IMG/VR virus record: IMGVR_UViG_3300036987_000310
Span: 96,001 to 160,000 of that record
DNA: 64,000 nucleotides
Source: a virus
Lineage: Duplodnaviria; Caudoviricetes
Direction: 5' to 3' (one strand)
Shown: one piece after another, positions 9,081 to 54,386 of the stretch
Position numbering within the stretch: position 1 is the first letter of the stretch
Layout: each line of letters opens with the position of its first letter
Position numbers and translations under genes: made by a program
Notes under the pieces: model-generated
Told to the model about the DNA's origin: nothing
Seen by the model: the letters and a program-made list of their open reading frames with translations, nothing else
Database searches by the model: none

Positions 9081-9896
9081 TCAACCCTTGGTTCGACGCC
9101 AAATTGTCAACATGTCGTTGGTGCTAGGCCATTGAGGAATGGACACTGTCGCTTCAAGAGCAAAGTCCCTGCACAAGATTTTCCGGAACCTTTCATCGGC
9201 AGTCGTGTCGGAAAACTCGCCAACATACGCCAGGCGCTCTCCTCTCCAATGTTTCAAACATTGGGAGGCCATGTCTCCCCTTGGGGGCCAGCATAGCAAG
9301 AGAGTCTTGTCAGCGTGATCCTTTAGAATTTCCGGGGTTCCGTGCGCAACCTTCATGTGCTGCTTCGATCCGACGTGCCATGGGTTGCAGGCAGACACTA
9401 GCGACTTTAGAGACCCGGGCGGGGCTCGATCGTACGCGTGCACGCTCGCTCCCATTTTTCGCAAAAGAAAGGCCCAGTATCCGGTGCCTGCCCCCATTTC
9501 AACAATTGGCGACAACGCGGCTATATGTCTGAGAGCTTCTTCGGTCGGAACGGCCCACGAATATCGAGACACGAGATTATCTCGAAGCTCAACCACATCA
9601 GAAGCTTCAAGCCCTCGAGACCGGGCCTCCAAGAATGTTTTCAGAAGAGGATTGGAATCTTGAACCAACGTTTCTTTCCTCTTTTTTGAAAGTTTTTTGA
9701 TTTTGGCCTCGAGCTTCAGGGCGGCAGAAACGTCTGCAACTCTGGTATGCCACGCCACAGTCAAAAACCCGCGGCCACGGGTGAACTTAGCGCCTTTCCC
9801 GCTTCGGTGCTGCTCAAGGCGCCTCATTAGGTTGTCAGTCGCCCCTGTGTACAAGGACCCGTCTCCGCATCGAATCATGTAGACGACCCAAGGCAT
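9081..9896 (-). CDS. GIY-YIG nuclease fused to a class I SAM-methyltransferase-like domain
   Basis: N-terminal VVYMIRCGDGSLYTGAT..RRLEQH..ALKLE; C-terminal IVEMGAGTGYWA..VHAYD, LLLCWPP. Confidence 0.75.
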   Translation of the reverse strand: MPWVVYMIRCGDGSLYTGATDNLMRRLEQHRSGKGAKFTRGRGFLTVAWHTRVADVSAALKLEAKIKKLSKKRKETLVQDSNPLLKTFLEARSRGLEASDVVELRDNLVSRYSWAVPTEEALRHIAALSPIVEMGAGTGYWAFLLRKMGASVHAYDRAPPGSLKSLVSACNPWHVGSKQHMKVAHGTPEILKDHADKTLLLCWPPRGDMASQCLKHWRGERLAYVGEFSDTTADERFRKILCRDFALEATVSIPQWPSTNDMLTIWRRTKG

Positions 9897-9934: not shown

Positions 9935-10774
9935 TTACGCTGCGTCCGCGTTGTCTACGAGAATTTCAGGCACGGATTTTCTTCTGTCTGGATCTGCCAT
10001 GCTGCACGGGTTTACAACAGTTTCCATGTTAAACCCGAAAAACAGGCCCGGAATGTTCACATTGGCAGAGTTGGACAAAGCTTGGACAACCCCGCGATCG
10101 TCCAATTTCCGAAAGAGCGTGGCTAAACGAACATGATCATCATATGAAAAACCGTTTGGCGTGTATTGGGTGAACTTTGAAGTCTTTGACGTGGGCATGT
10201 AGGGAGGGTCGAAGTATGCCGCGTCTCCAGGCCCAGCGTCGGTGCACATGTCCTCGAAATCTGTTTCCGCAAGCTCTGCCATGTTTAGCGCTGCGGAACA
10301 AGCTCGAAGATTTTCTTCGACGAAGATTTTTGGGTTCACATATTTGCCAAACGGAGTGTTGAACCCACCGTTTCTGTTGACTCTATACAAGCCGTTAAAG
10401 CATGTGTGGTTTAGGTAGATAATCCTCGCAGCTCTTTCAGTTTGGCTCATGCAGCTCGGGTCCATGCTGCGAATGTTGAGGTATGACTGTCTGTCATACA
10501 CGAATTGAGGTTGTTTCAATAAGTCAATCAAACCGTCAATGTCGTCTCGCACGGCTTGATATGCATCCATCAAATCCGGGCATTTGTCTCCAATGACAGC
10601 CCGGTCAAATCGCTTTTGACGAGCAAGCTCAAAAAAGACGATGCCGCCGCCCAAGAAAGGCTCGTAGTATGTTCCGATTTTCTTAGGTAGCTTATCGAGA
10701 ATTTTGGAGAGCATGCGGCTCTTGCCGCCCGCCCACTTCATGAATGGTCTCGGGATGGTTGACATCGTGTTCAA
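9935..10774 (-). CDS. dam: Dam-family DNA adenine methyltransferase
   Basis: FMKWAGGKS, YYEPFLGGG, FNGLYRVN, YFDPPY. Confidence 0.92.
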   Translation of the reverse strand: MNTMSTIPRPFMKWAGGKSRMLSKILDKLPKKIGTYYEPFLGGGIVFFELARQKRFDRAVIGDKCPDLMDAYQAVRDDIDGLIDLLKQPQFVYDRQSYLNIRSMDPSCMSQTERAARIIYLNHTCFNGLYRVNRNGGFNTPFGKYVNPKIFVEENLRACSAALNMAELAETDFEDMCTDAGPGDAAYFDPPYMPTSKTSKFTQYTPNGFSYDDHVRLATLFRKLDDRGVVQALSNSANVNIPGLFFGFNMETVVNPCSMADPDRRKSVPEILVDNADAA

Positions 10775-12656: not shown

Positions 12657-13138
12657 GTCGACCCATTGTTTCGCATGTTGGTTTCGACCACTTCCTTGAC
12701 ACTGAAGATCTCAGGGCGGGGCTCAACCCGTCTAAAGTCTATGTCGCATTTGGAAATCAAATCCGGATCGAGAGGGATGCGGTATTGCTCATCAAACACA
12801 ATGGAGCGCACGCCAGAATTTATGAGCATCTTGAAACAGTTATAGCAAGGCGACAACGTCACATATGCCGTCGCCCCGTCAATGCAGGTTCCATGCTTCG
12901 CTGCTTGAGCCACAGCGTTAACTTCTGCGTGAATAGTTCTTATACACCCTCCGTCAGGGCCGATTTCACACCCGACGTCAGTGCAATGTGGCTGTCCGCG
13001 TATGGACCCGCCATAACCGGTCGACAAGATTGCTCTGTCGCGAACTATCACACATCCAACTTGTTTTCTGTTGCAGGTTGACCGCTCAGCGACTTCACGA
13101 GCTATCGACAGGAAATACTCGTCCCAGCTTTTTCGCAT
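12653..13138 (-). CDS. dCMP deaminase (ComEB-like)
   Basis: RSTCNRKQVGCVIV, IHAEVNA and SPCYNC zinc motifs. Confidence 0.93.
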   Translation of the reverse strand: MRKSWDEYFLSIAREVAERSTCNRKQVGCVIVRDRAILSTGYGGSIRGQPHCTDVGCEIGPDGGCIRTIHAEVNAVAQAAKHGTCIDGATAYVTLSPCYNCFKMLINSGVRSIVFDEQYRIPLDPDLISKCDIDFRRVEPRPEIFSVKEVVETNMRNNGST

Positions 13139-13172
13139 GAGACGAATTACACTCCTGCAGTGTCAGCATTTG

Positions 13173-13299
13173 TGGCGGGTGAAGGAATCGAACCTTCCTG
13201 GCGTGTGGGCACAAACGGCGTCTCCCTTTCGGGAGAGAGTGGAAAATGCCGGATTGTCTTCCTTTTGGTAGAAGCGGGATCCCAGATCCCTAACCCGCC
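13173..13299 (-). ncRNA. Giant tRNA-like RNA A (loop ACCAAAA, CAA-like) with ~60-nt variable-loop insert
   Basis: Acceptor GGCGGGT/ACCCGCC; D arm GGGA-TCTGGGA-TCCC; stem CTTCT/GGAAG; T arm GAAGG-TTCGATT-CCTTC. Confidence 0.7.
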
Positions 13300-13332
13300 T
13301 AATTGAAAACGCTCGAGTGTCGATGCCGGTTT

Positions 13333-13407
13333 TGGTGCACGAGGCAGGACTTGAACCTGCAACTTCCTGTTTCGTAGACAGACGCTCTACCTTTGAGCAA
13401 CTTGCGC
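13333..13407 (-). tRNA. tRNA-Arg(ACG)
   Basis: Cloverleaf, loop CT-ACG-AA, encoded CCA, two acceptor wobble/mismatch positions. Confidence 0.85.
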
Positions 13408-13434
13408 TTGTTGGAACCGATGATTGAGCGTTTT

Positions 13435-13572
13435 CGGAGCGGGACCCGGGAGTCGAACCCGGAAACTTGTGAGCAAGATTTGCGGCTTCCTTGCGAAAGC
13501 GAGGGGGCTTGCTGGTTGAGCATTGGCTCCACTGTGGAAAAGTGGTGAGGAACCGATCCTCTGTAGTCCCGC
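13435..13572 (-). ncRNA. Giant tRNA-Gly(TCC)-like RNA B with ~65-nt variable-loop insert
   Basis: GCGGGAC/GTCCCGC with U73; D arm GAGG/CCTC; CCACT-TTTCCAC-AGTGG; T arm CCGGG-TTCGACT-CCCGG. Confidence 0.8.
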
Positions 13573-13607
13573 GAAAGTTTGGACGTTCGAGTGGCGACGC
13601 TGATTTT

Positions 13608-13683
13608 TGGCTTGCAAAGCGGGACTTGAACCCACTACACCCAGCTTTTAAGGCTGATGCTCTACCCAATGAGCTATTTGCTT
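13608..13683 (-). tRNA. Atypical tRNA with TAA anticodon, short variable loop and frayed acceptor (A1-A72, A2-A71)
   Basis: TCAGC-CTTAAAA-GCTGG; T arm GTGGG-TTCAAGT-CCCGC; GCCA end. Confidence 0.6.
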
Positions 13684-13707
13684 GTTAGAGCCGCTGTTTG
13701 AACGTCC

Positions 13708-13844
13708 TGGTGCAGGGCGAAGGAGTCGAACCTTCTTAGCTTGTGAGCACTTCGAATGCTCCTGGTGAGGGAGCGAGTGGAAACGCTGGAGACTTTTGTC
13801 GTCGTGTCCAAATCACGATGGGTGACCGTCACCCTGTGCCCTGC
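13708..13844 (-). ncRNA. Giant tRNA-Gln(TTG)-like RNA C with ~65-nt variable-loop insert
   Basis: GCAGGGC/GCCCTGC-ACCA; D arm GGGTG/CACCC; TCGTG-ATTTGGA-CACGA; T arm GAAGG-TTCGACT-CCTTC. Confidence 0.8.
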
Positions 13845-13850
13845 ATATTA

Positions 13851-14014
13851 ACCGCGTCCGAGTGGCAAATCTGTTTTACGCTTTTGACGATTTTCCTGTC
13901 GTTGCCTTTACCAGTTTGGCTACTCCCCCTAGTTTTTCCGTGGTGGGGGAGGCGGGAATCGAACCCGCATTGTGCTTTCGCACTTGCTTGTTAGATCAAC
14001 CGTATGGACGCGAT
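13851..14014 (-). ncRNA. Circularly permuted tRNA-like RNA D (YrlA/Y-RNA-like topology)
   Basis: Order on minus strand: V arm, T arm, CTCCCCC-ACCA, linker, GGGGGAG, D arm; termini ATCGCGTCC/GGACGCGGT pair. Confidence 0.7.
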
Positions 14015-14143
14015 TGGCGCCGGACCTTGGATTCGAACCAAGTTGCTTGTGAGCAGGACTTGAAGCTCCCTTGCGGGGGCGAGTTGGCCAGCTGGGCTTA
14101 GATCAGCTTAAGAGGCTGGTGGGGACCATCCCCAGTGTCCGGC
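14015..14143 (-). ncRNA. Giant tRNA-Lys(CTT)-like RNA E with ~60-nt variable-loop insert
   Basis: GCCGGAC/GTCCGGC-GCCA; D arm GGGG/CCCC; CAGC-CTCTTAA-GCTG; T arm CTTGG-TTCGAAT-CCAAG. Confidence 0.8.
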
Positions 14144-14144
14144 A

Positions 14145-14221
14145 TGGTAACGGGGGCAGGATTTGAACCTGCGACCTTGAGGTTATGGGCCTCACGAGCT
14201 ACCAGACTGCTCTACCCCGCA
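14145..14221 (-). tRNA. Initiator tRNA-fMet(CAT)
   Basis: 1:72 mismatch, GCGGGG..AGTCTGGTAGCTCG body, CAT anticodon, ACCA. Confidence 0.9.
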
Positions 14222-14254
14222 TCGATGACGACATGAACTTTCAAAGAACGAGAA

Positions 14255-14390
14255 TGGGGGAGGGCGAAGGAGTCGAACCTTCTATGCTTGTTAGAATCGC
14301 TTGATGCTTTCGCACGGAAAGCGAGGGGCGAATCTGGAACGCAGTTGCGTCGGATTTACCGTCCGATTGGGCGCCGTGCCCAAGCCCTCC
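14255..14390 (-). ncRNA. Giant tRNA-Tyr(GTA)-like RNA F with ~65-nt variable-loop insert
   Basis: GGAGGGC/GCCCTCC-CCCA; D arm GGGC/GCCC; TCGGA-CGGTAAA-TCCGA; T arm GAAGG-TTCGACT-CCTTC. Confidence 0.8.
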
Positions 14391-14408
14391 AAAACAAAAC
14401 GCTCGAGG

Positions 14409-14469
14409 TGAGATGCTTGGATTGACCCGCGCGCTTGGCGGGTCGAGCCTTCCAGCTTGTCAGCATCTC
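14409..14469 (-). ncRNA. Small structured element G carrying the cluster motif (GCTGACAAG)
   Basis: Outer stem GAGATGCT/AGCATCTC, inner stem GACCCGC/GCGGGTC. Confidence 0.45.
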
Positions 14470-14484
14470 TGGATGAACGCTCAC

Positions 14485-14736
14485 TCATATTTTACATTTG
14501 AGACCACTGTCTGTCAATATCTGGCAAACATCTTCAACAAATCGACTACACGGCGTCAAAGCCACGGGCCCTGACACGATTTCAACGCTGCCGTCCGAGT
14601 GAACGGTCACATCCTCTAGATAACCTGGCAGTTTTTCCCACTTTTCACATCGAAGAGCGTCTCTCAAGCTGTCAGAACACTCCCAATCGCGTATTTGACT
14701 GTTGAGTGCCAAAATGACGAAAAGCACAACTTTCAT
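14485..14736 (-). CDS. Hypothetical protein
   Basis: ATGA-coupled in the E1 operon. Confidence 0.55.
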   Translation of the reverse strand: MKVVLFVILALNSQIRDWECSDSLRDALRCEKWEKLPGYLEDVTVHSDGSVEIVSGPVALTPCSRFVEDVCQILTDSGLKCKI

Positions 14737-14984
14737 GAGTCTTGAACGTCCGAAATGTCAAGCAAAATTTTGGCGTTGTCCCTGAAATACTCTATGTCAG
14801 CCATCCTGGCTTCCAGCTCCCTCAACTGCCCCTCAATGGTGTCCACTTTTGCTCTCAGGACTTCAACCTCAGTGGTGTCAAATTTCGCCTCCATGGTTTC
14901 AAGAACTGGCGCAACAGATCTTTTAAACAATTTTATGGAACTGCGCGCTTGTTTGGAAGATGTTCGCTTCAACCGTTTCATCAC
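14733..14984 (-). CDS. Hypothetical coiled-coil protein, ends DVQDS
   Basis: ATGA-coupled in the E1 operon. Confidence 0.55.
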   Translation of the reverse strand: MMKRLKRTSSKQARSSIKLFKRSVAPVLETMEAKFDTTEVEVLRAKVDTIEGQLRELEARMADIEYFRDNAKILLDISDVQDS

Positions 14985-15553
14985 ACCCTCATGGCACCAG
15001 TGGGCGTGATTTGGAACCCGTGTTTTTCCCCGGAGTTTAGGAATTTTTGGGCTGCCGTGGCTATGTACGAAGCCACGGTTGCTATGAACGGAAGAAAGTC
15101 ACCATTCTCGCATGTTGCCCCTCCGGCTCCGTCTTCATCATCGATGACGAAATTTTCGCTCCAAATGACTCGCCCAAATTGTCCCCCGGCCGCCAACGTT
15201 CCGTGCAAACATGGAACGTTGGACTTGGAGAAGTTTTGAACGATTCTTCTGGCCTCTCCGTTGTCCAAACAGTCGATGATCAAGTCAGCGCCAGCCAACA
15301 GCTGGTCGTCGTTTTCCGACGACAGCTTGTGCGGAATGGACCCGATTTTGATTGCAAACAGAAACTGCATGAGCTGTTGAAGCGCAACAGTCTTGTTCTT
15401 CCCCACGGCATTTTGCGCATGGAACTGGGATGCTACGTTCTTGCGCTCGATTCTGTCGAAATCGATGACGTTGATTGTCGCTTCGCAGTTTCGGAGAAAA
15501 AGGGCCACGTGAGACCCGAGCGCTCCTACTCCGACGATTGTCACCTTCTTCAT
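14981..15553 (-). CDS. ThiF/E1-like adenylyltransferase
   Basis: VTIVGVGALGS, DFDRIERKNVASQ, KNK, LIIDCLDNGEARR, and candidate catalytic Cys in GATCE. Confidence 0.88.
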   Translation of the reverse strand: MKKVTIVGVGALGSHVALFLRNCEATINVIDFDRIERKNVASQFHAQNAVGKNKTVALQQLMQFLFAIKIGSIPHKLSSENDDQLLAGADLIIDCLDNGEARRIVQNFSKSNVPCLHGTLAAGGQFGRVIWSENFVIDDEDGAGGATCENGDFLPFIATVASYIATAAQKFLNSGEKHGFQITPTGAMRV

Positions 15554-15561
15554 GTCATCCG

Positions 15562-15906
15562 TTACTTTTCGAGTTTGTCCATTTCCGCAGCATTCAAGAA
15601 GTCTTCGACGTCAGAAACCCCGTATTTGTCCTGCAAGACCGAGAGAATCCCAGCGTGCCGCATCTTTGCCTGTTCGAGCCGATCGTTTGCCGTGTCTTTT
15701 GTGATGAGCCCTGATGCCAAAGCATTGAATATGATAGACTTTTCGACCGTTTCATGCGCCTCAAGCTGTTGAAGAACAGCCTGTTCCGGCGTCAGGCTTG
15801 TGTCGGACTCGAACTTCATGCTCAAGAACTCGGATTGTTTTTCTCCGTTTCTGTTGACTTCCATGATTTTTGAAATTGAGAAGCTTTTAACAACTAGGGC
15901 CATCAC
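15562..15906 (-). CDS. Hypothetical protein
   Basis: GGAG RBS, operon context. Confidence 0.6.
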   Translation of the reverse strand: MMALVVKSFSISKIMEVNRNGEKQSEFLSMKFESDTSLTPEQAVLQQLEAHETVEKSIIFNALASGLITKDTANDRLEQAKMRHAGILSVLQDKYGVSDVEDFLNAAEMDKLEK

Positions 15907-16030
15907 TCCTCCTGAATTCCATGCCGCCCGTTTCTTCCCGTCTCAGAAAAACGTTCTCTAGAATTACATCTAGAATGTAGCGTGGTAGATCGTCAGTTAG
16001 TGGAGTTTGCAACTATCAAGCTTTGACCAG

Positions 16031-16246
16031 TTATTCTCCATGAACGGACTCCACGATTCTTGCAGTGGCTTCAGCAGCTTGGCCGTCGCTCCACCAGCCG
16101 TGACCATCAAAGTGCATGCCGCAATGATCGCGCTTCATCACGCACTTTCCACAGCCTTCCCACGGACCACAAACCTCACACCGTTCTTTTATTGGCAAAC
16201 ATGGAGTCGGGTCTGACGGGCGGTTTATCAAGTCCATCGTGGACAT
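16031..16246 (-). CDS. Cys-rich hypothetical protein, ends ESVHGE
   Basis: CxxC pairs; tag-like C-terminus. Confidence 0.55.
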   Translation of the reverse strand: MSTMDLINRPSDPTPCLPIKERCEVCGPWEGCGKCVMKRDHCGMHFDGHGWWSDGQAAEATARIVESVHGE

Positions 16247-16255
16247 GCGACATGA

Positions 16256-16531
16256 TCACAAAATGCCGAATGGTGTCTTGGGGCGGCACTGTATGAGAGC
16301 CCAAGGACGCGTTTCATTGGGCTCAAACCTGTCCACTACGAAGTCTGTGAAATCCGCGCCCGGATCGGCAGAGATTCCCGGGACAGTTCCTGTTCGAACA
16401 GCTTCAGTAACCCATCGTTTGATGTCGACGTCCGCCGCATCCCGATTCACCGTGTCAGACAAGTCTCCATTCTGACCATTCCAAGTAACATTTACGCGTG
16501 CTTCTCCGATTTGAACGATTTCGTCTGCCAT
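16256..16531 (-). CDS. Putative ubiquitin-like (beta-grasp) protein with C-terminal PKTPFG-IL
   Basis: 91 aa, beta-grasp-like pattern, Gly before a 2-residue tail, sits between JAB and E1 genes. Confidence 0.65.
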   Translation of the reverse strand: MADEIVQIGEARVNVTWNGQNGDLSDTVNRDAADVDIKRWVTEAVRTGTVPGISADPGADFTDFVVDRFEPNETRPWALIQCRPKTPFGIL

Positions 16532-16545
16532 TTGCGTCTCCTAAT

Positions 16546-16881
16546 TCAGGTTCTTTTGTTCTTGAACATCACCACTACTTCTTGAGCAAATCTTTCAGAG
16601 CTGAAGTCCGACAGCACTTCGCTCAATGCACGAAGAAATGCGACAATGTTGCGTTTTTCTTCCAAATCTCGTCTGGCGCGCTCTACTTTTTCAGCCCTGG
16701 TGTCGTTCAGGGTTCGGTAGTCGAAGAAAACTTCTTTGGCGAAGTGTTCGTGCCTAAGAATCTCATTTTCGGTATCCTTGACGGAGTTTTGAAAATGATC
16801 TAGCGCTGCGTTGACTATCCACTGAAAATGATGGTCTTGAAGTTTTGCCGCGATGCTTTTCAGATTTCCGAACTTATCCAT
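16546..16881 (-). CDS. Hypothetical protein
   Basis: Between JAB and Ubl. Confidence 0.6.
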   Translation of the reverse strand: MDKFGNLKSIAAKLQDHHFQWIVNAALDHFQNSVKDTENEILRHEHFAKEVFFDYRTLNDTRAEKVERARRDLEEKRNIVAFLRALSEVLSDFSSERFAQEVVVMFKNKRT

Positions 16882-16889
16882 GCAACAGT

Positions 16890-17282
16890 TTACACGCGGG
16901 GCGGCCGAATTTCCGACAGCTCTCGAAGCTTATTGACCCAGTCAAACCCGAGGTTTGTCTTTTCTGCCGCCCCTTTATAGTCAAGCTTTTCCGGACCAGT
17001 CCACACTATGGTTGCCGCCATGTCGCTGGTGAAAATCCACCACACCAGTCTCTTCCCTAAAGCCGCTTCGATCGCGGCGAACGTGGTCAAATCAGTGTGA
17101 GACGGTTGTGGGACTCCAGAGCCCGGGTGGGTGTGTGCGAATCCAGCGACGGCGTCGCGGTTTCCCCAGATGACGTCCCACAAGCTTCTGCTGTCTGGCA
17201 AAGCGCCAACGTTCCTGTCGTTCGGAGCATGCCAGTACATGACTTTCCCGTCGTTGTTTACGACAGCCCCCGCTTCTTTCAT
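16890..17282 (-). CDS. JAB/MPN+ metallopeptidase
   Basis: GFAHTHPGSGVPQPSHTD = HxH-x7-S-x2-D JAMM motif. Confidence 0.85.
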   Translation of the reverse strand: MKEAGAVVNNDGKVMYWHAPNDRNVGALPDSRSLWDVIWGNRDAVAGFAHTHPGSGVPQPSHTDLTTFAAIEAALGKRLVWWIFTSDMAATIVWTGPEKLDYKGAAEKTNLGFDWVNKLRELSEIRPPRV

Positions 17283-17701
17283 GACATCTCCATTCGCACT
17301 TGCATCAACAACTTCCCAAGCATGTTTTTTCCTTTGCCTGTCTTGGAGTCAACCCCCCAAAATTTGTCCCCCCATGAGTTTCCTTCAACAAGCTCGACGT
17401 CGCCTGTGTCAAGAAGCTGCTGACGAAGACCAGGGTCTGAGAATTTTTCTCGCAAAAGATCCAACATGACTCTGATTTTTACGTTCTCCCAATCTTTCCT
17501 GAGAGTCGCTCCTCGTCCGAGTTTTTTAGCTTCGCCTGCCGTTTTAGCCATCCTGATCTTTGACCGTTCGACAGGGCTGAGCGTTTTTGCTGCTTGGTAT
17601 GCATGCTCCACAGTTCGAAATGAGACGCCATCGTAAAAAACTCGACTGTCGTAAAAATTTGACAAAAACGCATGCTCGTTGAAAAACTTGTCGATTTTCA
17701 T
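17279..17701 (-). CDS. NADAR (YbiA/DUF1768) family protein
   Basis: FLSNFY, TVEHAYQAAK, KF..L..LL.TG..ELVE, DKFWG, GKNMLGKLLM. Confidence 0.92.
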   Translation of the reverse strand: MKIDKFFNEHAFLSNFYDSRVFYDGVSFRTVEHAYQAAKTLSPVERSKIRMAKTAGEAKKLGRGATLRKDWENVKIRVMLDLLREKFSDPGLRQQLLDTGDVELVEGNSWGDKFWGVDSKTGKGKNMLGKLLMQVRMEMS

Positions 17702-17889
17702 TGGCTCATGACTTCCATGACTGGATGACGACTAATGCACACCCAACAAACGCGTTGCCCATCAATATTTCCGCTCTGGACTCTTCCAGAGTGCATATGA
17801 CTTTTCGGAAGCCACCACATGCGAATCTTCTTACACCTAGGGCATCTTTTGTGCCTCGGACGCTTTCTGTTCTTCGCTCGCTTCTTCAT
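17698..17889 (-). CDS. Zn-finger-like hypothetical protein, ends MEVMSQ
   Basis: CPRC..CWVC. Confidence 0.55.
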   Translation of the reverse strand: MKKRAKNRKRPRHKRCPRCKKIRMWWLPKSHMHSGRVQSGNIDGQRVCWVCISRHPVMEVMSQ

Positions 17890-17895
17890 CTGCGC

Positions 17896-18168
17896 TTACT
17901 TATCTTCTGGTTCATTCATGGGCACATATGGCTCGTATCCTTCTCGCCTGTTGTGCTCCTGCATGGCTTCCACCCAAGAGCCTGCCTCAAATTCATATAG
18001 CAGTTCTGACTCCGGACTCATGAAGCCCTGTTCAATCATCTTTTTAGCGTTTTCCTCGGTCGTGAGCTGGACGCCGCCTTCCTCCCCGTCCAAAGCATAG
18101 ATAAAGTTGTGGCAGACGAACTTGACTAGCCCTTTGGCGTTGTGCGGCCAGTATGGGACGTCGGACAT
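17896..18168 (-). CDS. Hypothetical protein
   Basis: Co-oriented ORF. Confidence 0.55.
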   Translation of the reverse strand: MSDVPYWPHNAKGLVKFVCHNFIYALDGEEGGVQLTTEENAKKMIEQGFMSPESELLYEFEAGSWVEAMQEHNRREGYEPYVPMNEPEDK

Positions 18169-18234
18169 TGCTTTAGCTTTCTTTACATGTCGACATGTTC
18201 ATTTCGCCGACGCTACAAACATCGTTAAGTTGGT

Positions 18235-18540
18235 TCATGACGACTGCACCTCGTCGACTACAATTAGATTCATGGCGTCTTTAACCGACACCTCGACAAG
18301 AGCTTTCCAGATTGTTGCATTAATCACCACGCGTGTTTTATGCTCTTCGCACCGAAACACGGTTAGCGTGCCTCCGGGGCGAAGAAAAGCACGCGTTGCT
18401 GGTTTTCCGCACTTAACGCCAGCGCGCGATCCGCTTTTTTTGTGCGGAAAATGGCCACAAACCGGCAATTTCACCGCCCTATGACTTTTACGACCTGTCA
18501 CTCGACTTCCTCGAATGCTCCTAAAGCGTTCCTTTTCCAT
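18235..18540 (-). CDS. Hypothetical protein (true start probably downstream), ends DEVQSS
   Basis: CG..C..C.EH zinc motif. Confidence 0.45.
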   Translation of the reverse strand: MEKERFRSIRGSRVTGRKSHRAVKLPVCGHFPHKKSGSRAGVKCGKPATRAFLRPGGTLTVFRCEEHKTRVVINATIWKALVEVSVKDAMNLIVVDEVQSS

Positions 18541-18725
18541 TCGCGGCCTAAATCTTTAGATACGATTCTCACTATATCTTTGTGGTCGTGTTCTATATCC
18601 GAAAGCCAAACATCAACCTGGTATTCGGAATCGACGCGAACGCTTCCGGCGTGGGTGGGGCCGCCCGGCCCGTGCTTTTCGCCTGGCCCGGCCGGGGTGT
18701 CGTCATGGAGCTCAAGTTCGATCAT
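18498..18725 (-). CDS. Hypothetical protein
   Basis: Co-oriented ORF. Confidence 0.5.
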   Translation of the reverse strand: MIELELHDDTPAGPGEKHGPGGPTHAGSVRVDSEYQVDVWLSDIEHDHKDIVRIVSKDLGREWKRNALGAFEEVE

Positions 18726-18918
18726 TGGATTTCGCTTTCAACCAACTTTCAGCTTCGTCGCCGATTCCTTGTTTTCTCGCCCATTCTTTTAAACTTTGAT
18801 CGGTTCCAGACTTCTTCCAACGTCGAACCATGCTGCGCCGCGCCTTTTTCCCGATGCCCTTATACCCTTCATTCATTGCGCCCTCACACGGGTGGTTGCC
18901 AGCAAAAGTGCTGGCCGA

Positions 18919-19167
18919 TCATGACCTCGAAGAGTGTGGACCGTGAACTGCGGAGTTCACGACTTCACCTCCGCTGCTGAATGGCGTCGAGTTATACCTG
19001 ACAACGCCGTTTGCATCTGAGAATTTGTGAACGGTGAACGAGCTCGTGTTTTCCAGAGCTTCTTTCACCTTGTCCACTGTGGACCCGATTTCGCCGGATA
19101 TCTCTTCAAGAGTCCCAGCGCCGTGGAAACAAAAATGTTTGCGCAGTTTAATTTCCAAGTCTTTCAT
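18919..19167 (-). CDS. Hypothetical protein (possible winged HTH)
   Basis: TLEEISGEIGSTVDKVKEAL. Confidence 0.45.
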   Translation of the reverse strand: MKDLEIKLRKHFCFHGAGTLEEISGEIGSTVDKVKEALENTSSFTVHKFSDANGVVRYNSTPFSSGGEVVNSAVHGPHSSRS

Positions 19168-19168
19168 T

Positions 19169-22334: not shown

Positions 22335-22676
22335 TCACAACCTGTGACCGAATGTTTTTTCCGTCATTAAATTTGTTACCAGCGCAGCATTGCAGTCTTC
22401 GGGCGTTCCAGAGTTTTCAAGGTCCCCGCGTTCCGGGGTTTTGCATACGTGGTTGCCGGTGCGACTGCAGATGGTCCACGTTTCGCTACCGCATACTGAG
22501 CACTGCCACAACTTCGTGTCGTTATGCAAAACTTTGACGAAACGCCAATCGTGTTTTGTTTTGATTTCTTCGTAAGAAATGGGAACGACGACCTCTTGAG
22601 CCTCTCCGTCCTGTTCAAAGTTCAGGAGAGCATCATATCTGTTCAAGAGGTCGTCGTGTTTGGTCATGCGGCCCAA
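22335..22676 (-). CDS. Hypothetical Zn-finger protein
   Basis: CSVC..C..HVC. Confidence 0.5.
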   Translation of the reverse strand: MGRMTKHDDLLNRYDALLNFEQDGEAQEVVVPISYEEIKTKHDWRFVKVLHNDTKLWQCSVCGSETWTICSRTGNHVCKTPERGDLENSGTPEDCNAALVTNLMTEKTFGHRL

Positions 22677-24550
22677 GTGGGTTTGCAGAGAAGATCTTGC
22701 TTCAATATGGTATCAACGAGCGTGACGCGCGGAACCGCGACAGCCCGAGCCGTCGCGCCGACTGGAGTTGCTGCGACGAGCGCACGAATCGTACGAGGAA
22801 TCGCGTACGGATCTGCGAATGTTGCTTCGTCAATCATGAAGCATGGAATCCCGAGTCGGGCCGCGGTGTCGCGAACTGCGGACCCATACCCTCCTAAGTT
22901 GACGACTCCGTACATCATGCCTCCTCCAACCTTCACAAAGCCGAAAGCCATGGGGCGAAGTTCGGACGTGTTGACGTCATTCTCAAACGACGACGCTTGT
23001 TCATCTCCAACAAAGATGAACAAGCTGTCTTCGTCGTCGCCAGGCTTGTGGGCCTTCAAGGCGCGGATCCCGGCTCCATAGTCGGTTCCGCCTCCAGCGC
23101 GAATGCCCTTGAAGGCGTTCTCCACTCCAGCTGCAGAGGGGTGGCGGATCTGAAGCTCGCGCCCCTGCGTGTTGAAAATGGACACGTGCACTTTGTCCGG
23201 CGGGAACCCCTGAAGGAATTTTGCGACGTGAGATTTGGCAGCCTCAATCGCATTTTCCATCGACCCAGAGACGTCCACCATGAAGTACACGCGCATGCCC
23301 TTCATAGTTTCTTCGACCGCCTTTTGCAGAGCCCCGTCGGCTGCTTCTTGCAGCTTTTCCTGAGTCTCCTTAGACTTGACGCGGTTGGCGATGTTGGCCG
23401 CCCGCATGTCTTCAGCGTTTTTGACAGCTTTGTTCCACCTGTCTTTGACGTCTTGGACCTCTAGCAGCCCAAGCTCCTCGAGAGTCGGCGTGTAGATGAT
23501 CAAGTCCTTGTCGGACAGAGACTTGGCTTCAATTGCTGCGGCCATGACGGCGCGCGTGACCCCGACCTCTTTCGGAAGAAGTCCGACGACCCGCTTGAAA
23601 TTCGGCTTTTCACGAACGATCTTTTCGCAGATCTGTTCTTCCGTCATTCCTTCCCAAGTTTCGGCTGCAGCCATTTCCTGACCGATTGCGAGCTGGCGCC
23701 TGCCGTCTTTTGCCTGCGCCTGCTTCCAGCGCAGAATCTCAAAGAATTTCGTCGTTTCAGGCTTATATCCGACGCAACGCGAAAGCTCCATGACAGTGGA
23801 TCGGAAGCCTGCTTTCACGAGGCCTTCGAGAAGCTTCGTGTTCTGCTCTCGATGTCTCAGCCACTTCTCCACGGCCTTGTCCCATCGGCCGTAAAATGGC
23901 CGACGAGCTGACCTCCCAAATCCAAGCTCGCGATTGACAGCCGCCACCCCTGGAAGGGAAAGCAGATCGTGGACGCGCAAGAGAAGCTTCGGATTGAAGT
24001 CCTTTCCGTCCTTGCGAGAAAGAAGAAGCATGGCCTCGCCAACGTCACGATAGTCTTCATCGTAAAATGCGACTTTTCCGCCGTCGACAACCGAGTCCCC
24101 CTTGCGGGACTGGCACAGCATGAACGCAGCCAGAACAACTTTCAAGTCGCGATGCTCCTGACCGAAAGCATACGACGCCCACCGAGCTGCGAATTCGTTG
24201 TCGAGCTTCCAGACTTCGGCGACTTGCGTGTACATCCAAACTGCCACTTCCGGAAACAGGCCGGCCGGCCTATACTCCCCAACGATGTTCGCGCCTTCTT
24301 TCACTTTCCCATCATCTTGAAGAACGCCTAGACGAGTGCGCACAGACTTCTTTCCCTGCTTGGAAAGCTTGTACACAATTTTTTGCTTCGGATCGCCTTC
24401 TTCTTTGTGGGTGACAGGTTCCCATCTGACGCCGACGTTGAAACGGTTATCGGCGACTACGATGCCAGGGCGGTTGTGGACCGCGTGGTCCGTGTAGCCG
24501 AGAAGCGTTTGAATAATTCTCTCTGCCGGTCCTAGATTTTCTTTGTCCAT
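22664..24550 (-). CDS. TROVE/Ro60-like helical domain plus vWA (MIDAS) domain protein
   Basis: C-terminal YFMVDVSGSM, GGGTD, IFVGDE MIDAS; helical N-region with GFRSTVMELSRCVGYKP resembling the Ro60 GW.H.DLLRL.H.KP segment. Confidence 0.65.
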   Translation of the reverse strand: MDKENLGPAERIIQTLLGYTDHAVHNRPGIVVADNRFNVGVRWEPVTHKEEGDPKQKIVYKLSKQGKKSVRTRLGVLQDDGKVKEGANIVGEYRPAGLFPEVAVWMYTQVAEVWKLDNEFAARWASYAFGQEHRDLKVVLAAFMLCQSRKGDSVVDGGKVAFYDEDYRDVGEAMLLLSRKDGKDFNPKLLLRVHDLLSLPGVAAVNRELGFGRSARRPFYGRWDKAVEKWLRHREQNTKLLEGLVKAGFRSTVMELSRCVGYKPETTKFFEILRWKQAQAKDGRRQLAIGQEMAAAETWEGMTEEQICEKIVREKPNFKRVVGLLPKEVGVTRAVMAAAIEAKSLSDKDLIIYTPTLEELGLLEVQDVKDRWNKAVKNAEDMRAANIANRVKSKETQEKLQEAADGALQKAVEETMKGMRVYFMVDVSGSMENAIEAAKSHVAKFLQGFPPDKVHVSIFNTQGRELQIRHPSAAGVENAFKGIRAGGGTDYGAGIRALKAHKPGDDEDSLFIFVGDEQASSFENDVNTSELRPMAFGFVKVGGGMMYGVVNLGGYGSAVRDTAARLGIPCFMIDEATFADPYAIPRTIRALVAATPVGATARAVAVPRVTLVDTILKQDLLCKPTWAA

Positions 24551-27406: not shown

Positions 27407-28843
27407 TCAGTCGGATCCCTTTATGCTGGCCAAGGGGTAGAGCCGCCGCTCGACGCGCGCCACTCCGGCCTTTTGCAACACCGCGAGCACTGCGTCGAGG
27501 CTCTTGTACACGTGGGCGCATTCGTCCAACGGCACGTGCTTGGTGTTGCCGACAATGCCTTCCACTGCCACGGAGCCAAACTGGCGCTTGACTTGGCGCA
27601 TCTCGTCGTCTATGCGCAGTTGCTTGTGCTCGAACTTGCGCTTGGCCGCGCCCCGAGCCAAAATGCGCCCCGATCCGTGGTTGACCGAGCATGCCCAGGC
27701 ATGCGCGCCGTCCAGAGGCGTCAGCACCGCTGCGCCTTCGAACATGCTGCCGGGAACGATGATTGGGTGCCCCACAGCCGCCCATCTCAGCTGGTTCGCG
27801 ATGTCCGGATGGCCCGCCGGCATGGCGCGCGTCGCGCCCTTCCGGTGCACTAGACCGCGCTTTGTCGTCCCGTCTGGCAGCACCAGCGTCTCCTCCTGGA
27901 TTAGATTGTGCGAGATTTCGTAGTAGACTTCGGCATCAACTCCAAACTGCTCCTGGAACGCGCGGCGCACGGAGGCGGCCATGGCATGGCGGTTGGCAAT
28001 CGCGTAATTGGCTGCCGAGTTGTGATGCGCCCAGTATTGCTTGCCCGTTGGCTCTTCAATGGATAGCCACGCTTCGCCGCGGCGTTTTGACGACCAGCCT
28101 CGGACCCTGGCTGCTTCGTAGAAGAAGTGCTCTGCGGTCTGGTATCCGTAGCCGCGCGAGCCTGAGTGGATCATGACCCACAGCGAGCCGTCGGCCTCGT
28201 CGCCTTGCAGTTCGATGAAGTGGTTTCCGCCGCCGAGCGATCCGAGCTGAGCCGCGGCCTTGCTCCAGGCACGCTCGATCAGCTTGAAGTTGGTGCCGTC
28301 CGCCACGGGGAGCTTCACTCGCTCGCACGAGTTCGGCAGCACGTCCAAGGGCTCTCCGCCGTTCTGCATGATTTCGAGCAGGGTTTCCTCGCTGAATTCG
28401 GGCATGAGCTTCGGCCTGTTCATTCCGATCCCGACGGCGACGCGCTTCTCGACTTCCGAAATCCAGCGCTCGCGCGGGTACCGATTCTTGAAGTGCCCGG
28501 CAGTCAGACCATCCACCCGCATCAGCAGCATACCGCAGCTGATGTCGTACCCGCTTGCTGCCATCACGAGCGTGCCGTCGGTGACGAGCACGCATCCAAC
28601 AGGAACCGAGTATCCTGAGTGCGAGTCGGGCATGAGGTATGCGCCGGTCACGCCTTCGTACGAGGCGGCGTACATCAGCTGATTCCACACCTCCTCTTCG
28701 GAGGCCGCATACAGCTCGTCCGACAAGAACGCGTGGCCGTCCACCTTCATTGTCTTGGTTTTCGCCAAAACGTAATGACCGTCGTCGAGACGTTGTGCTG
28801 CATATTTGAGCGACATGTTATTTTCTTTCAAGAGCTCGTTCAA
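27407..28843 (-). CDS. rtcB: RtcB RNA ligase
   Basis: MPDSH, DISCG, GSLGGGNHFIE, HSGSRG, SHN, HRKGATRA, HGSGR; visibly GC-rich. Confidence 0.95.
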   Translation of the reverse strand: MNELLKENNMSLKYAAQRLDDGHYVLAKTKTMKVDGHAFLSDELYAASEEEVWNQLMYAASYEGVTGAYLMPDSHSGYSVPVGCVLVTDGTLVMAASGYDISCGMLLMRVDGLTAGHFKNRYPRERWISEVEKRVAVGIGMNRPKLMPEFSEETLLEIMQNGGEPLDVLPNSCERVKLPVADGTNFKLIERAWSKAAAQLGSLGGGNHFIELQGDEADGSLWVMIHSGSRGYGYQTAEHFFYEAARVRGWSSKRRGEAWLSIEEPTGKQYWAHHNSAANYAIANRHAMAASVRRAFQEQFGVDAEVYYEISHNLIQEETLVLPDGTTKRGLVHRKGATRAMPAGHPDIANQLRWAAVGHPIIVPGSMFEGAAVLTPLDGAHAWACSVNHGSGRILARGAAKRKFEHKQLRIDDEMRQVKRQFGSVAVEGIVGNTKHVPLDECAHVYKSLDAVLAVLQKAGVARVERRLYPLASIKGSD

Positions 28844-54327: not shown

Positions 54328-54386
54328 GAATCGAACTTGCTACCAGCGGTTTTGGAGACCACCGAGCTACCTTAGCGTTCTGACCC
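54313..54386 (-). tRNA. tRNA-Trp(CCA)
   Basis: Loop CT-CCA-AA, GCCA. Confidence 0.88.

What the first reader, a model, noticed from the sequence alone, without database searches (positions are those of the whole stretch)
13173..14390. Family of five giant tRNA-like RNAs with ~60-nt variable-loop inserts ending in a shared C(T/C)NACAA|G motif: candidate RtcB-ligated tRNA introns or tRNA-scaffolded RNAs
Elements A (13173-13299), B (13435-13572, Gly-TCC with Gly acceptor identity and U73), C (13708-13844, Gln-TTG), E (14015-14143, Lys-CTT) and F (14255-14390, Tyr-GTA) each have a 7-bp acceptor stem, a compact GG-containing D arm, an anticodon arm and a canonical TTCGA T arm, but are 127-138 nt long. 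The inserts contain small hairpins (several with GNRA loops), share a CTCGC/CTCTC-pyrimidine segment, and end TGCTCACAAG (B, C, E), TCTAACAAG (F) or TGCCCACACG (A). Cutting before that final G leaves exactly 4-5 nt before the T stem (GTTT, GCTAA, GCAA, GCATA, GCCAG), the length of a normal variable loop. The same motif sits at the 5' boundary of the neighbouring tRNA-Arg (CCAACAA|GCGC) and of the TAA tRNA (CTAACAA|GCAA), with nine copies in 1.3 kb. Normal-length tRNAs with the same anticodons exist elsewhere in the window. Established: RtcB joins 2',3'-cyclic phosphate/3'-P to 5'-OH ends and is the ligase of archaeal/metazoan tRNA splicing; the inserts are too short for group I/II introns and I see no clear bulge-helix-bulge. 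Inference: either protein-excised tRNA introns ligated by the phage RtcB, or unspliced tRNA-mimic scaffolds or decoys (e.g. for anticodon nucleases or the Ro60-like protein).
Basis: partly seen in the sequence, partly recalled or inferred. Interest (0 to 1): 0.9.

Follow-up and report, generated by a model that had tools for sequence, protein, structure and literature searches.

The report
Phage tRNA look-alikes with docking arm
The five oversized "tRNAs" are real, conserved phage RNAs: tRNA-shaped bodies carrying a structured 45-nt arm that always travels with a Ro60-like ring protein gene, so they are most likely unspliced Y-RNA-type partners of that protein and not intron-bearing tRNAs.

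Summary
On the minus strand of a 377-kb jumbo phage, five 127-138 nt RNAs have a 7-bp acceptor stem, a D arm with GG, an anticodon-type hairpin and a UUCGA T arm. Each also has an arm (P1, a loop with CUC, P2) in the variable region, followed by unpaired YACA(A/C)GC.

I found at least 69 distinct members in about 50 phage contigs. Arm pairing covaries: 91.5% of cells are paired, against 64% after shuffling. In 64 of 69 members the acceptor stem is perfect.

The same arm occurs circularly permuted. It closes a permuted tRNA mimic (13850-14015) and encloses two whole tRNA-like units (13305-13435, 13581-13707).

An RNA-only search found 20 new contigs. Fifteen carry the same Ro60-like gene, and the other five are fragments. 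RtcB is present in only 1 of 5 near-complete genomes.

Only 19 of 69 members have a canonical 7-nt loop with U33. The distance from ACAMG to the T stem varies from 1 to 8 nt.

Best reading (0.6): unspliced Y-RNA-like tRNA mimics whose arm docks the phage Ro60-like protein. The intron reading is unlikely (0.05).

Earlier unchecked notes of this scan describe similar "handle" RNAs beside Ro60-like genes in other phages. I found no published description of this architecture.

The parts
13173..13299 (-). Giant tRNA-like RNA A (127 nt). Arm 13208-13250: P1 GGCAU/GUGCC, loop with CACUC, P2 capped by GAAA. Motif CACACG at 13202-13207. Loop ACCAAAA (C33). Discriminator A73.
   Evidence: R1 model 81.2 bits
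13435..13572 (-). Giant tRNA-like RNA B (138 nt). Arm 13472-13513. Motif CACAAG at 13466-13471. Loop UUUCCAC, identical to that of the phage's normal tRNA-Gly(UCC). U73 and a G1-C2-G3 acceptor start.
   Evidence: R1 90.2 bits
13708..13844 (-). Giant tRNA-like RNA C (137 nt). Arm 13746-13787. Motif CACAAG at 13740-13745. Loop AUUUGGA. A73 followed by encoded CCA.
   Evidence: R1 83.1 bits
14015..14143 (-). Giant tRNA-like RNA E (129 nt). Arm 14052-14093. Motif CACAAG at 14046-14051. Loop CUCUUAA. G73 followed by encoded CCA.
   Evidence: R1 92 bits
14255..14390 (-). Giant tRNA-like RNA F (136 nt). Arm 14293-14335. Motif AACAAG at 14287-14292. Loop CGGUAAA (G33, GUA). C73 followed by CCA. It is the only Tyr-type gene in the genome.
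   Evidence: R1 81.1 bits
13850..14015 (-). Element D, a circular permutation of the giant form. The 5' and 3' ends pair as P2 (10 bp). The order is P1 strand AUCU, AACAAG, V hairpin, T arm, loop-closed acceptor stem, D arm, anticodon-type hairpin, P1 partner AGAU, CCACUC.
   Evidence: Rfam YrlA 25 bits and tmRNA_permuted 31 bits, both below their cut-offs; parse
13581..13707 (-). Open-form arm enclosing the class I tRNA-like Leu(UAA) unit (13608-13683). P2 is GGACGUUC/GAACGUCC. The AAG of CUAACAAG forms acceptor positions 1-3, and pairs 1-72 and 2-71 are A-A mismatches.
13305..13435 (-). Open-form arm enclosing tRNA-Arg(ACG) (13333-13407). P2 is GAAAACGCUC/GAGCGUUUUC. The motif CCAACAA is followed directly by G1 of the tRNA.
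14392..14481 (-). Ninth copy. P1 is GAGAUGCU/AGCAUCUC, followed by GACAAG, around a plain 7-bp hairpin, then ACCUC. No local partner for its P2 strand was found.
   Evidence: Sequence; motif position
14145..14221 (-). Ordinary tRNA-Met inside the array, with no arm.
14489..14517 (-). Sigma-70-like promoter TTGACA-17-TAAAAT (11 of 12 matches) just upstream of the first unit. The units abut one another, so a single transcript is likely.
   Evidence: one such site is expected by chance in the scanned region
22664..24550 (-). Gene for the 628-aa Ro60-like protein (helical ring region plus vWA domain), the proposed protein partner.
   Evidence: Pfam finds only vWA. The 12 best Foldseek matches of the AlphaFold model are Ro60/TROVE structures, E 1.5e-8 to 1e-5, aligned over more than 500 columns.
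27407..28843 (-). RtcB RNA ligase gene. It is an accessory in this phage and is not conserved with the RNA family.

Best explanation
The five RNAs are unspliced non-coding tRNA mimics of the Y-RNA kind. Each folds into a tRNA-like L shape with the acceptor, D and T arms intact and the elbow nucleotides kept. From the variable region projects a roughly 45-nt arm (P1, an asymmetric loop with invariant CUC, then P2), flanked by unpaired CC on the 5' side and YACA(A/C)GC(A) on the 3' side.

This arm plus motif is a portable handle. The same operon uses it in three connectivities: inside a tRNA body, closing a permuted tRNA body, and clamping the two ends of a whole tRNA.

I infer that the handle is the docking site of the phage's divergent Ro60-like ring protein. 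The tRNA-shaped part would then present a tRNA surface, often with the anticodon loop and discriminator of a particular tRNA (Tyr, Gly, Asn, Gln, Met, Lys), to tRNA-recognising proteins. Those could be host anticodon nucleases, synthetases, processing enzymes or, where present, RtcB. In this way the RNAs would tether the protein to its targets, or bait those targets, as bacterial Y RNAs tether Ro60 to effectors.

Shown: the fold, its conservation and covariation, the permuted copies, and the co-occurrence with the Ro60-like gene. Inferred: binding to that protein and the downstream role.
For: (1) A covariance model of the arm plus T arm finds the five copies at 81-92 bits and nothing comparable elsewhere in the genome. 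It finds 69 distinct members in relatives.

(2) P1, P2 and the T stem covary. 91.5% of cells are paired against 64% after shuffling and at most 54% when partners are slid. 15 of 17 pairs show changes on both sides.

(3) 64 of 69 members have a perfect 7-bp acceptor stem 45-60 nt upstream of the arm, with varied sequences.

(4) ACA and G of the motif are invariant in 69 of 69 members. CUC was found in all 69, but it was the anchor I aligned on.

(5) The same P1/CUC/P2/ACAMG module occurs in open form around tRNA-like units here and in relatives, including GenBank KX853510.

(6) The 628-aa protein has a Ro60 fold.

(7) A pattern search that used RNA features only gave 20 new contigs with model-confirmed members. 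Fifteen encode a full-length homologue of that protein (E at most 1e-167). The five without it are 27-68% complete fragments.

(8) Gene order differs between lineages but the linkage is kept. The RNAs lie 0.1-1.6 kb upstream of the gene in lineages with 35-61% identical proteins, and 8 kb downstream here.

(9) The anticodon hairpins are relaxed. Only 38 of 69 have a 7-nt loop, and only 19 of those have U33, against 680 of 724 in the same phages' normal tRNAs.

(10) Precedent: YrlA Y RNAs are tRNA mimics encoded beside Ro60 on the same strand (PMC4201824). Phage phiLo Ro60 binds phage-encoded Y-like RNAs (PMC12135203). Listeria phage CKA15 has abundant ncRNAs 2 kb upstream of an Rsr-like gene (PMC12282133).
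Against: No binding or expression data exist. No public RNA run holds this sequence.

All carriers belong to one broad clade of jumbo phages, so the co-occurrence is partly inherited and is not made of independent events.

The published Rsr-binding motif GNCGAAN0-1G is absent, and the Rfam YrlA model scores at most 25 bits against a cut-off of 69.

The anticodon triplet and the discriminator base are coupled: 21 of 38 members match the rule of the phages' own tRNAs, against 13.5 after shuffling, P about 0.002. F is also the only Tyr-type gene in the genome. Both facts would also fit chargeable tRNAs.
Confidence: 0.6

Rival explanations
1. They are working tRNAs that are aminoacylated and decode. 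The extra arm would be an expansion that docks a protein, for example to protect or repair the tRNA, without being removed.
For: The anticodon triplet and discriminator are coupled: GUA with A73 in 7 of 8 members, UCC with U73, GUU with G73; 21 of 38 overall against 13.5 after shuffling. B has the full E. coli-type Gly identity set (identity rules recalled from memory, not checked in a paper here) and the same loop as the phage's normal tRNA-Gly. C74 is nearly invariant and CCA is encoded in 24 of 69 members. F is the only Tyr-type gene in a genome that covers the 19 other amino acids. With the module deleted in silico, ARAGORN of 69 as tRNAs.
Against: Only 19 of 69 members have a 7-nt loop with U33. 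G33 is fixed in the Tyr- and Asn-type loops (CGGUAAA six times, CGGUUAA twice). Loops range from 3 to 9 nt. Three members with the same acceptor stem carry AAU, GUU and AUC at the anticodon position. Redundant normal tRNAs exist for four of the five anticodons here. The coupling could reflect shared descent of subfamilies.
Confidence: 0.15
2. The arm is a cis-acting maturation or stability element of a polycistronic tRNA transcript, for example a double-strand or junction site for a host or phage RNase. It would have no dedicated protein partner of the Ro60 type.
For: The units abut directly, so each P2 strand starts at the previous unit's CCA-like tail. In the enclosing form ACAA sits exactly before G1 and the 3' side follows CCA, which are the natural tRNA end-processing sites. 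The stem, internal loop, stem shape recalls phage RNase III sites (this last point is from memory).
Against: In the enclosed units the motif often forms the first acceptor positions and leaves pairs 1-72 and 2-71 mismatched, which does not suit release of a mature tRNA. A processing site inside the variable region would cut the giants in two. The invariant single-stranded ACA.G and CUC and the tight link to one protein family are not explained.
Confidence: 0.1
3. The arms are intervening sequences. A protein endonuclease cuts at CC|AG and ACAA|G, and RtcB (phage or host) joins the exons, or the halves stay together as a nicked tRNA.
For: The motif lies 4-5 nt before the T stem in this phage. 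The same motif marks the exact 5' end of tRNA-Arg. RtcB is encoded 13 kb away. Module-deleted constructs look like tRNAs to ARAGORN in 44 of 69 cases.
Against: RtcB is absent from 4 of 5 genomes that are at least 92% complete and carry the RNAs. The segment left after the G is 1-8 nt, and the segment between the anticodon stem and P1 is 5-15 nt and often has its own mini-hairpin, so the joined product would not have a normal variable loop. I saw no bulge-helix-bulge. No endonuclease candidate was identified. Anticodon loops are mostly non-canonical. The permuted and enclosing forms cannot be explained as splicing.
Confidence: 0.05
4. The arm is a selfish palindromic insertion (like Rickettsia palindromic elements) that is tolerated in tRNA genes and flanks and has no function.
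For: The same module appears in several contexts within 1.3 kb.
Against: The copies are highly diverged and keep pairing through compensatory changes. Invariant unpaired nucleotides are maintained across proteins only 35-72% identical. The tRNA bodies resemble one another more than they resemble the normal tRNAs with the same anticodon. No copy lies outside tRNA arrays in the genome.
Confidence: 0.03

Closest known systems
YrlA-type bacterial and phage Y RNAs bound by Ro60/Rsr (Rfam RF02553; Chen et al. 2014, PMC4201824)
   Same: A small RNA made of a tRNA-like domain (T arm, D arm, acceptor-like stem) plus a separate stem module. It is encoded on the same strand near a Ro60-family gene, sometimes with RtcB. 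Element D has the loop-closed acceptor stem and paired 5'/3' ends of YrlA.
   Different: The five giants are not permuted. They keep open acceptor ends (often with encoded CCA) and an anticodon-type hairpin. The extra stem leaves from the variable region, not from the anticodon stem. The GNCGAAN0-1G motif is absent, and the conserved unpaired words CUC and YACA(A/C)GC take its place. The Rfam score is far below the cut-off. The protein partner matches Ro60 by fold only, and the Pfam TROVE model does not detect it.
Phage Ro60 with phage-encoded Y-like RNAs: Thermus phage phiLo Yrl1/Yrl2 (PMC12135203) and the abundant ncRNAs upstream of an Rsr-like gene in Listeria phage CKA15 (PMC12282133)
   Same: A phage encodes its own Ro60-fold protein and, close by on the same strand, several small structured RNAs that are proposed or shown to bind it. 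phiLo Ro60 is the best structural match of the protein here.
   Different: Those RNAs are described as stem, bulge, stem Y RNAs with a CGAA motif. They are not tRNA-shaped bodies with a variable-region arm, and no multi-topology array is reported.
Stem-plus-ACAGCAA 'handle' RNAs beside Ro60-like or DUF2828 genes (earlier unchecked notes of this scan), and the Class I RNAs of dictyostelids (PMC7919456)
   Same: A short covarying closing stem is followed on its 5' strand by an unpaired conserved word, around a variable and often tRNA-like insert. The word here (Y-Y-U-ACA-A/C-GCA) resembles the 11-nt Class I motif, whose near-invariant positions are T3, C6, C9, A10 and A11.
   Different: All 69 members here have one extra nucleotide (ACA-N-GC, not ACA-GC). 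They also have an outer extension (loop with CUC, then P2) that the notes do not describe. The protein is not detected by DUF2828 or TROVE models. I did not test homology of the motifs. I recalled the Class I motif letters from memory and checked only its conserved positions in the paper.
Class II tRNAs (long variable arm) and intron-containing or permuted archaeal tRNAs
   Same: The extra helix emerges between the anticodon and T arms. Permuted and interrupted versions of one tRNA-like design sit side by side.
   Different: Class II arms are 10-25 nt, against about 60 nt between the anticodon and T stems here. Archaeal introns are defined by a bulge-helix-bulge and restore a canonical tRNA, and neither holds here.

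Membership tests
tRNA (Rfam RF00005) | Cloverleaf with a 7-bp acceptor stem, a D arm with G18G19 and a T arm with a UUCRA loop | tested here: met
   Parse of all five. 64 of 69 family members have a perfect acceptor stem. GG is present in the D loops.
tRNA (Rfam RF00005) | 7-nt anticodon loop with U33 and a purine at 37 | tested here: not met
   A has C33 and F has G33. In the family, 38 of 69 have a 7-nt loop and 19 of those have U33, against 94% U33 in the phages' normal tRNAs.
tRNA (Rfam RF00005) | Recognised by tRNA models; variable region of 4-25 nt | tested here: not met
   Not called by ARAGORN or by Rfam at gathering or E-value thresholds. ARAGORN of 69 intact members. About 60 nt lie between the anticodon and T stems.
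YrlA Y RNA (RF02553) | Encoded near a Ro60 ortholog on the same strand | tested here: met
   Within 10 kb on the same strand in most loci. 15 of 20 contigs found by RNA features carry the gene. In divergent lineages the RNA lies 0.1-1.6 kb upstream of it. The protein is Ro60-like by fold only.
YrlA Y RNA (RF02553) | Permuted tRNA-like domain: loop-closed acceptor stem, with the 5'/3' ends forming the Ro-binding stem in place of the anticodon arm | tested here: not met
   The giants have open acceptor ends and keep an anticodon-type hairpin. Only element D is permuted, and even D keeps that hairpin.
YrlA Y RNA (RF02553) | GNCGAAN0-1G motif near the 5' end; score above the Rfam gathering threshold | tested here: not met
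   The motif is not present in any unit (reading). The best YrlA score is 25 bits for D, and 16-17 bits elsewhere, against a cut-off of 69.
YrlA Y RNA (RF02553) | Physical binding to Ro60/Rsr | not testable with these tools
   Needs EMSA or co-immunoprecipitation. No RNA-protein modelling tool was available.
Protein-spliced tRNA intron (archaeal/eukaryal type, RtcB-ligated) | Bulge-helix-bulge at the exon-intron junctions | tested here: inconclusive
   By inspection the junction is CC / P1 / YACAMG, with no 3-nt bulges separated by a 4-bp helix. No dedicated BHB search was run.
Protein-spliced tRNA intron (archaeal/eukaryal type, RtcB-ligated) | Excision restores a canonical tRNA | tested here: not met
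   The flanks left behind are 5-15 nt and 1-8 nt and are variable. Most loops are non-canonical.
Protein-spliced tRNA intron (archaeal/eukaryal type, RtcB-ligated) | Ligase (phage RtcB) travels with the interrupted genes | tested here: not met
   RtcB (PF01139) is present in 1 of 5 carrier genomes that are at least 92% complete. A host RtcB cannot be excluded.
Group I / group II intron | Size and conserved core helices | tested here: not met
   The inserts are about 45-60 nt, and the region has no Rfam intron hit at E up to 10.
Known self-cleaving ribozymes (hammerhead, twister, pistol, hatchet, HDV-like) | Match to the Rfam models | tested here: not met
   No hit at E up to 10 in 13000-14600. 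Theta-type HDV-like ribozymes may not be in the library.

The most novel reading that the evidence does not exclude
The arm is removed. A still unidentified phage or host endonuclease would cut at the two conserved junctions (after CC and before the G of ACAMG). The two tRNA pieces would then either be religated (by RtcB where present, otherwise by a host ligase) or work as a nicked two-piece tRNA. That would make this the first protein-dependent tRNA splicing or split-tRNA system in a bacterial virus, with the Ro60-like ring as its platform.
Probability: 0.05. Interest if true: 0.95.

Novelty: new variant of a known kind. Interest (0 to 1): 0.72.

Why it matters
Bacterial Y RNAs are known as permuted tRNA mimics that tether Ro60 to other enzymes, but why they imitate tRNA is unresolved. 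This phage clade builds the partner RNA from whole, open-ended tRNA bodies. It keeps the anticodon loop and discriminator of particular tRNAs (Tyr, Gly, Asn, Gln, Met, Lys) and attaches one portable arm in three different connectivities.

That gives a natural set of designs for testing what the tRNA part is for: bait for host anticodon nucleases, a recruiter of synthetases or repair enzymes, or a protected spare tRNA. It also allows mapping of what a divergent Ro60 recognises.

The family also shows that standard tRNA finders miss a class of phage RNA genes, with at least 69 members in about 50 contigs here. The conserved G33 next to G34-U35 in the Tyr- and Asn-type loops points to selection by tRNA-targeting defence or modification enzymes.

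Tried and rejected
- Rfam scans of the window (gathering thresholds) and of the region (E up to 10) gave only sub-threshold YrlA and permuted-tmRNA hits on element D. There were no ribozyme or intron families.
- blastn of the array against GenBank phages matched only the ordinary tRNA-Met.
- Pfam TROVE did not find the protein in the genome. phmmer against PDB sequences found nothing. Pfam at E up to 1 gave only vWA families. Only the fold search showed the Ro60 relationship.
- MAFFT alignment of the full-length elements misaligned the 5' parts. I therefore modelled only the arm, T arm and 3' strand, and parsed the 5' parts by script.
- The search for sequencing runs found only DNA runs (groundwater, coal, soil and similar metagenomes) and no RNA.
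- I tested whether the giants are recent insertions into copies of the phage's normal tRNAs. Their bodies are no closer to the normal tRNA with the same anticodon (at most 0.68 identity) than to each other (C-F 0.75, B-E 0.70), so I rejected that idea.
- The GenBank relative Virus Rctr197k has the Ro60-like gene and open-form or permuted units, but no strong giant within the 26 kb examined.
- My regex detector for open-form units gives many chance hits. I counted only those with a tRNA-like insert and P2 of at least 8-9 bp.
- I did not run complex prediction, because the proposed partner is an RNA.
Full report
**Context.** The window is bases 96001-160000 of a 376,674-bp virus record with direct terminal repeats, estimated complete. 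All genes and RNAs discussed lie on the minus strand. ARAGORN finds 37 tRNAs in the window and 39 in the genome. With a Trp gene seen only by Rfam, the tRNAs cover every amino acid except Tyr.

**Observation.** I split each into acceptor strand, D arm, anticodon-type hairpin, linker, P1, internal loop, P2 hairpin, internal loop, P1 partner, motif, linker, T arm, acceptor strand and tail. The concatenated segments reproduce each sequence exactly.
- tRNA finders and the Rfam tRNA model do not call any of them.
- The endings CUCACAAG (B, C, E), CUAACAAG (F) and CCCACACG (A) are correct, as is the 4-5 nt left before the T stem.
- Y-N-ACA(A/C)G occurs 8 times on the RNA strand of the 1.3-kb array, against 0.7 expected from the rest of the window, and never on the opposite strand.

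**The insert is a structured arm.** Comparison of the five copies suggested a lower helix P1, an asymmetric loop whose 5' side ends in CUC, and an upper hairpin P2. P1 changes in a compensatory way between copies (AGCAAG/CUUGCU, AGCGUUUC/GAAGUGCU, AGAUUCGC/GCGAUUCU, GGCAU/GUGCC).

I built a covariance model of the arm plus T arm plus 3' strand (R1).
- In the phage's own genome only the five copies score high (81-92 bits). The next hits are ordinary T arms at 25 bits or less.
- Relatives were fetched through the nearby 628-aa protein. In them and in their whole records, R1 finds many members at 30-79 bits.
- On a 24-row model alignment, 91.5% of cells are paired against 64% after shuffling (0 of 500 shuffles reach the observed value) and at most 54% when partners are slid by 1-3 columns. 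15 of 17 pairs show changes on both sides.
- Two caveats apply. The alignment was fitted to the model, and two of its rows are ordinary tRNAs.

**The whole tRNA shape is conserved.** For 69 distinct members, a script looked upstream of the arm for the partner of the seven bases that follow the T stem. 64 members have seven of seven pairs, with widely different sequences. Total lengths are 126-165 nt.
- RNAfold of the 5' parts gives a D hairpin with GG in its loop and a second hairpin at the anticodon position in nearly all members. About twenty also have a third mini-hairpin.
- With the arm deleted in silico, ARAGORN of 69 as tRNAs. Intact, it of 69.

**Conserved unpaired nucleotides**.
- ACA is invariant in 69 of 69 members. 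The next base is A in 48, C in 18 and U in 3. G is invariant in 69 of 69. It is followed by C in 58 and A in 42.
- Two C residues precede P1 (52 and 63 of 69).
- CUC precedes P2 in all members, but this was the anchor I aligned on.
- The distance from the G to the T stem is 1-8 nt (mode 4). The segment between the anticodon stem and P1 is 5-15 nt.

**One module in three connectivities.** In this window the same P1 / CUC / P2 / ACAMG module also occurs with P2 open.
- The flanks of tRNA-Arg (unit 13305-13435) pair as GAAAACGCUC/GAGCGUUUUC.
- The flanks of the class I Leu(UAA) unit (13581-13707) pair as GGACGUUC/GAACGUCC.
- The ends of element D (13850-14015) pair over 10 bp. In each case CACUC precedes the 3'-terminal strand, and AACAAG follows the inner helix.
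- D is a circular permutation of the giant design. Its order is T arm, loop-closed acceptor stem, D arm, anticodon-type hairpin. Its resemblance to YrlA (25 bits) and to permuted tmRNA (31 bits) is below threshold.
- A ninth copy (about 14392-14481) clamps a plain hairpin.
- The units abut one another, and a TTGACA-17-TAAAAT promoter-like site lies just upstream. A single processed transcript is therefore likely.
- Open-form units around tRNA-like inserts recur in relatives and in GenBank record KX853510. In several of them the motif supplies the first acceptor positions, and pairs 1-72 and 2-71 are mismatched. These are therefore tRNA-like domains attached to the module, not ordinary precursors.

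**The protein.**
- The 628-aa ORF (22664-24550) has only vWA hits in Pfam and no hit against PDB sequences.
- An AlphaFold model built on ten homologues has mean pLDDT 74.
- Its twelve best Foldseek matches are all Ro60/TROVE proteins, aligned over more than 500 columns: Thermus phage phiLo, Xenopus, human and Deinococcus Rsr, with E 1.5e-8 to 1e-5. TM-scores are low (0.21-0.29), consistent with a poorly placed domain arrangement.
- I therefore call it Ro60-like by fold.

**Co-occurrence.**
- Starting from the protein, most of the 48 loci with adequate flanks hold giants or open-form units within 10 kb on the same strand.
- Starting from the RNA, an exact-pattern scan of the viral collection used only RNA features (CUCG, gap, YACAMGC, gap, T arm) and returned 114 stretches.
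- Among stretches on contigs not already known, R1 confirmed members on more than 20 contigs. I tested 20 of these contigs for the protein.
- Fifteen of the 20 encode a full-length homologue (E at most 1e-167). The five without it are 27-68% complete fragments.
- Gene order differs between lineages while the linkage is kept. In lineages whose protein is 35-61% identical, the RNAs lie 0.1-1.6 kb upstream of the gene. In L076, for example, a permuted unit ends about 120 nt before the start codon. In this phage the array lies 8 kb downstream.
- All carriers are related jumbo phages, so these are not fully independent events.

**RtcB.** The phage encodes RtcB. Of five genomes that are at least 92% complete and carry both the RNAs and the Ro60-like gene, only one has an RtcB. 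The ligase is therefore an accessory and not the conserved partner.

**Are they decoders?**
- Only 38 of 69 members have a 7-nt loop at the anticodon position, and only 19 of those have U33. In normal tRNAs of the same loci, 680 of 724 have U33.
- Three members with the same acceptor stem carry AAU, GUU and AUC.
- The loops are not random, however. GUAAA (Tyr-type) occurs eight times on different acceptor stems, and UCCAC, UUGGA and CAUAA also recur.
- The triplet is coupled to the discriminator base used by the phages' own tRNAs: 21 of 38 against 13.5 after shuffling, P about 0.002. GUA goes with A73 in 7 of 8.
- G33 is tied to G34-U35 loops (CGGUAAA six times, CGGUUAA twice).
- This pattern fits mimics of particular tRNAs, possibly hardened against or offered to enzymes that read U33-G34-U35. 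It keeps the chargeable-tRNA rival alive. Shared descent of subfamilies could also produce the coupling.

**Why not introns?** The residues left on both sides are variable and would not give a normal variable loop. I saw no bulge-helix-bulge. RtcB does not travel with the family. Most loops could not decode. The permuted and enclosing copies make no sense as splicing. No RNA data exist to rule out cleavage, so I keep 0.05 for that reading.

**Comparison with what is known.**
- The closest published system is Ro60 with YrlA-type Y RNAs, which are tRNA mimics encoded beside Ro60 on the same strand (PMC4201824).
- Phage examples are phiLo (PMC12135203) and probably Listeria phage CKA15 (PMC12282133). 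A review of jumbo phages notes TROVE proteins with a tRLA-like... tRNA-like partner as a repair platform (PMC7824862).
- The present RNAs differ in four respects: connectivity (non-permuted, open acceptor ends), attachment point (variable region), recognition words (CUC and YACAMGC, not GNCGAAN0-1G), and the sequence-undetectable protein.
- My literature searches found no description of this architecture.
- Earlier unchecked notes of this scan describe stem-plus-ACAGCAA "handle" RNAs beside Ro60-like genes in many other phages, tRNA-like RNAs with a giant variable-region arm in another phage, and a likeness to dictyostelid Class I RNAs.
- I checked only that the Class I motif's conserved positions (T3, C6, C9, A10, A11; PMC7919456) are compatible with the word here once one extra base is allowed. 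I treat that as a lead only.

**Verdict.** The finding is a real, conserved and apparently undescribed architectural variant of Ro60-associated tRNA-mimic RNAs. The mechanism (the arm docks the Ro60-like ring while the tRNA body engages tRNA-recognising proteins) is inferred with confidence 0.6. The intron reading is unlikely.

Noticed in passing
window 43641-43722 and 55019-55102 (minus strand): The phage's normal tRNA-Gly(GCC) and tRNA-Gly(UCC) are 82 and 84 nt long. Each carries a class II-like variable hairpin (GGC-GAAA-GCC and GUGC-GCAA-GCAC), which is unusual for glycine tRNAs. The second resembles the V hairpin of element D.
   Followed up: partly
whole genome (G000); window 14255-14390: The genome has tRNAs for 19 amino acids (Trp at 54316-54386 is seen only by Rfam) but no normal tRNA-Tyr. 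The only GUA-bearing gene is giant F, which has G33 and C73.
   Followed up: partly
G000:C1:336141-336231 (outside the window): ARAGORN calls a 91-nt tRNA with anticodon UUA, a possible ochre suppressor, elsewhere in the phage genome.
   Followed up: no
window 13608-13683; relatives L003:18754, L008:17400, L011:8238: tRNA-like units enclosed by the open-form arm often have mismatched acceptor pairs 1-72 and 2-71 and rare anticodons (UAA on a class I body, UAU, AAA, AAU). They are probably not ordinary decoding tRNAs.
   Followed up: partly
family-wide: G at position 33 occurs almost only next to G34-U35: CGGUAAA six times, CGGUUAA twice, and one AGCCAAA exception. These Tyr- and Asn-type loops are the ones read by queuosine insertion and by colicin E5-type nucleases.
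   Followed up: partly
window 14981-20387: A ThiF/E1-like gene (14981-15553) lies directly beside the RNA array, and the same neighbourhood recurs in Virus Rctr197k (KX853510). Another first-reader note proposes a ubiquitin-like conjugation set here.
   Followed up: no
L010:284-682: A relative (IMG/VR 3300037722_000745) encodes a tmRNA (tag ANYNGFAQAA) inside its tRNA array.
   Followed up: no
window 26288-27199: An R2K-clade ATP-grasp protein is encoded immediately next to RtcB. It may be a further RNA- or peptide-ligase-type enzyme of the repair island.
   Followed up: no
window 9081-9896: One ORF combines a GIY-YIG nuclease domain with a weak methyltransferase match and lies next to a Dam-type methylase (9935-10774).
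   Followed up: no
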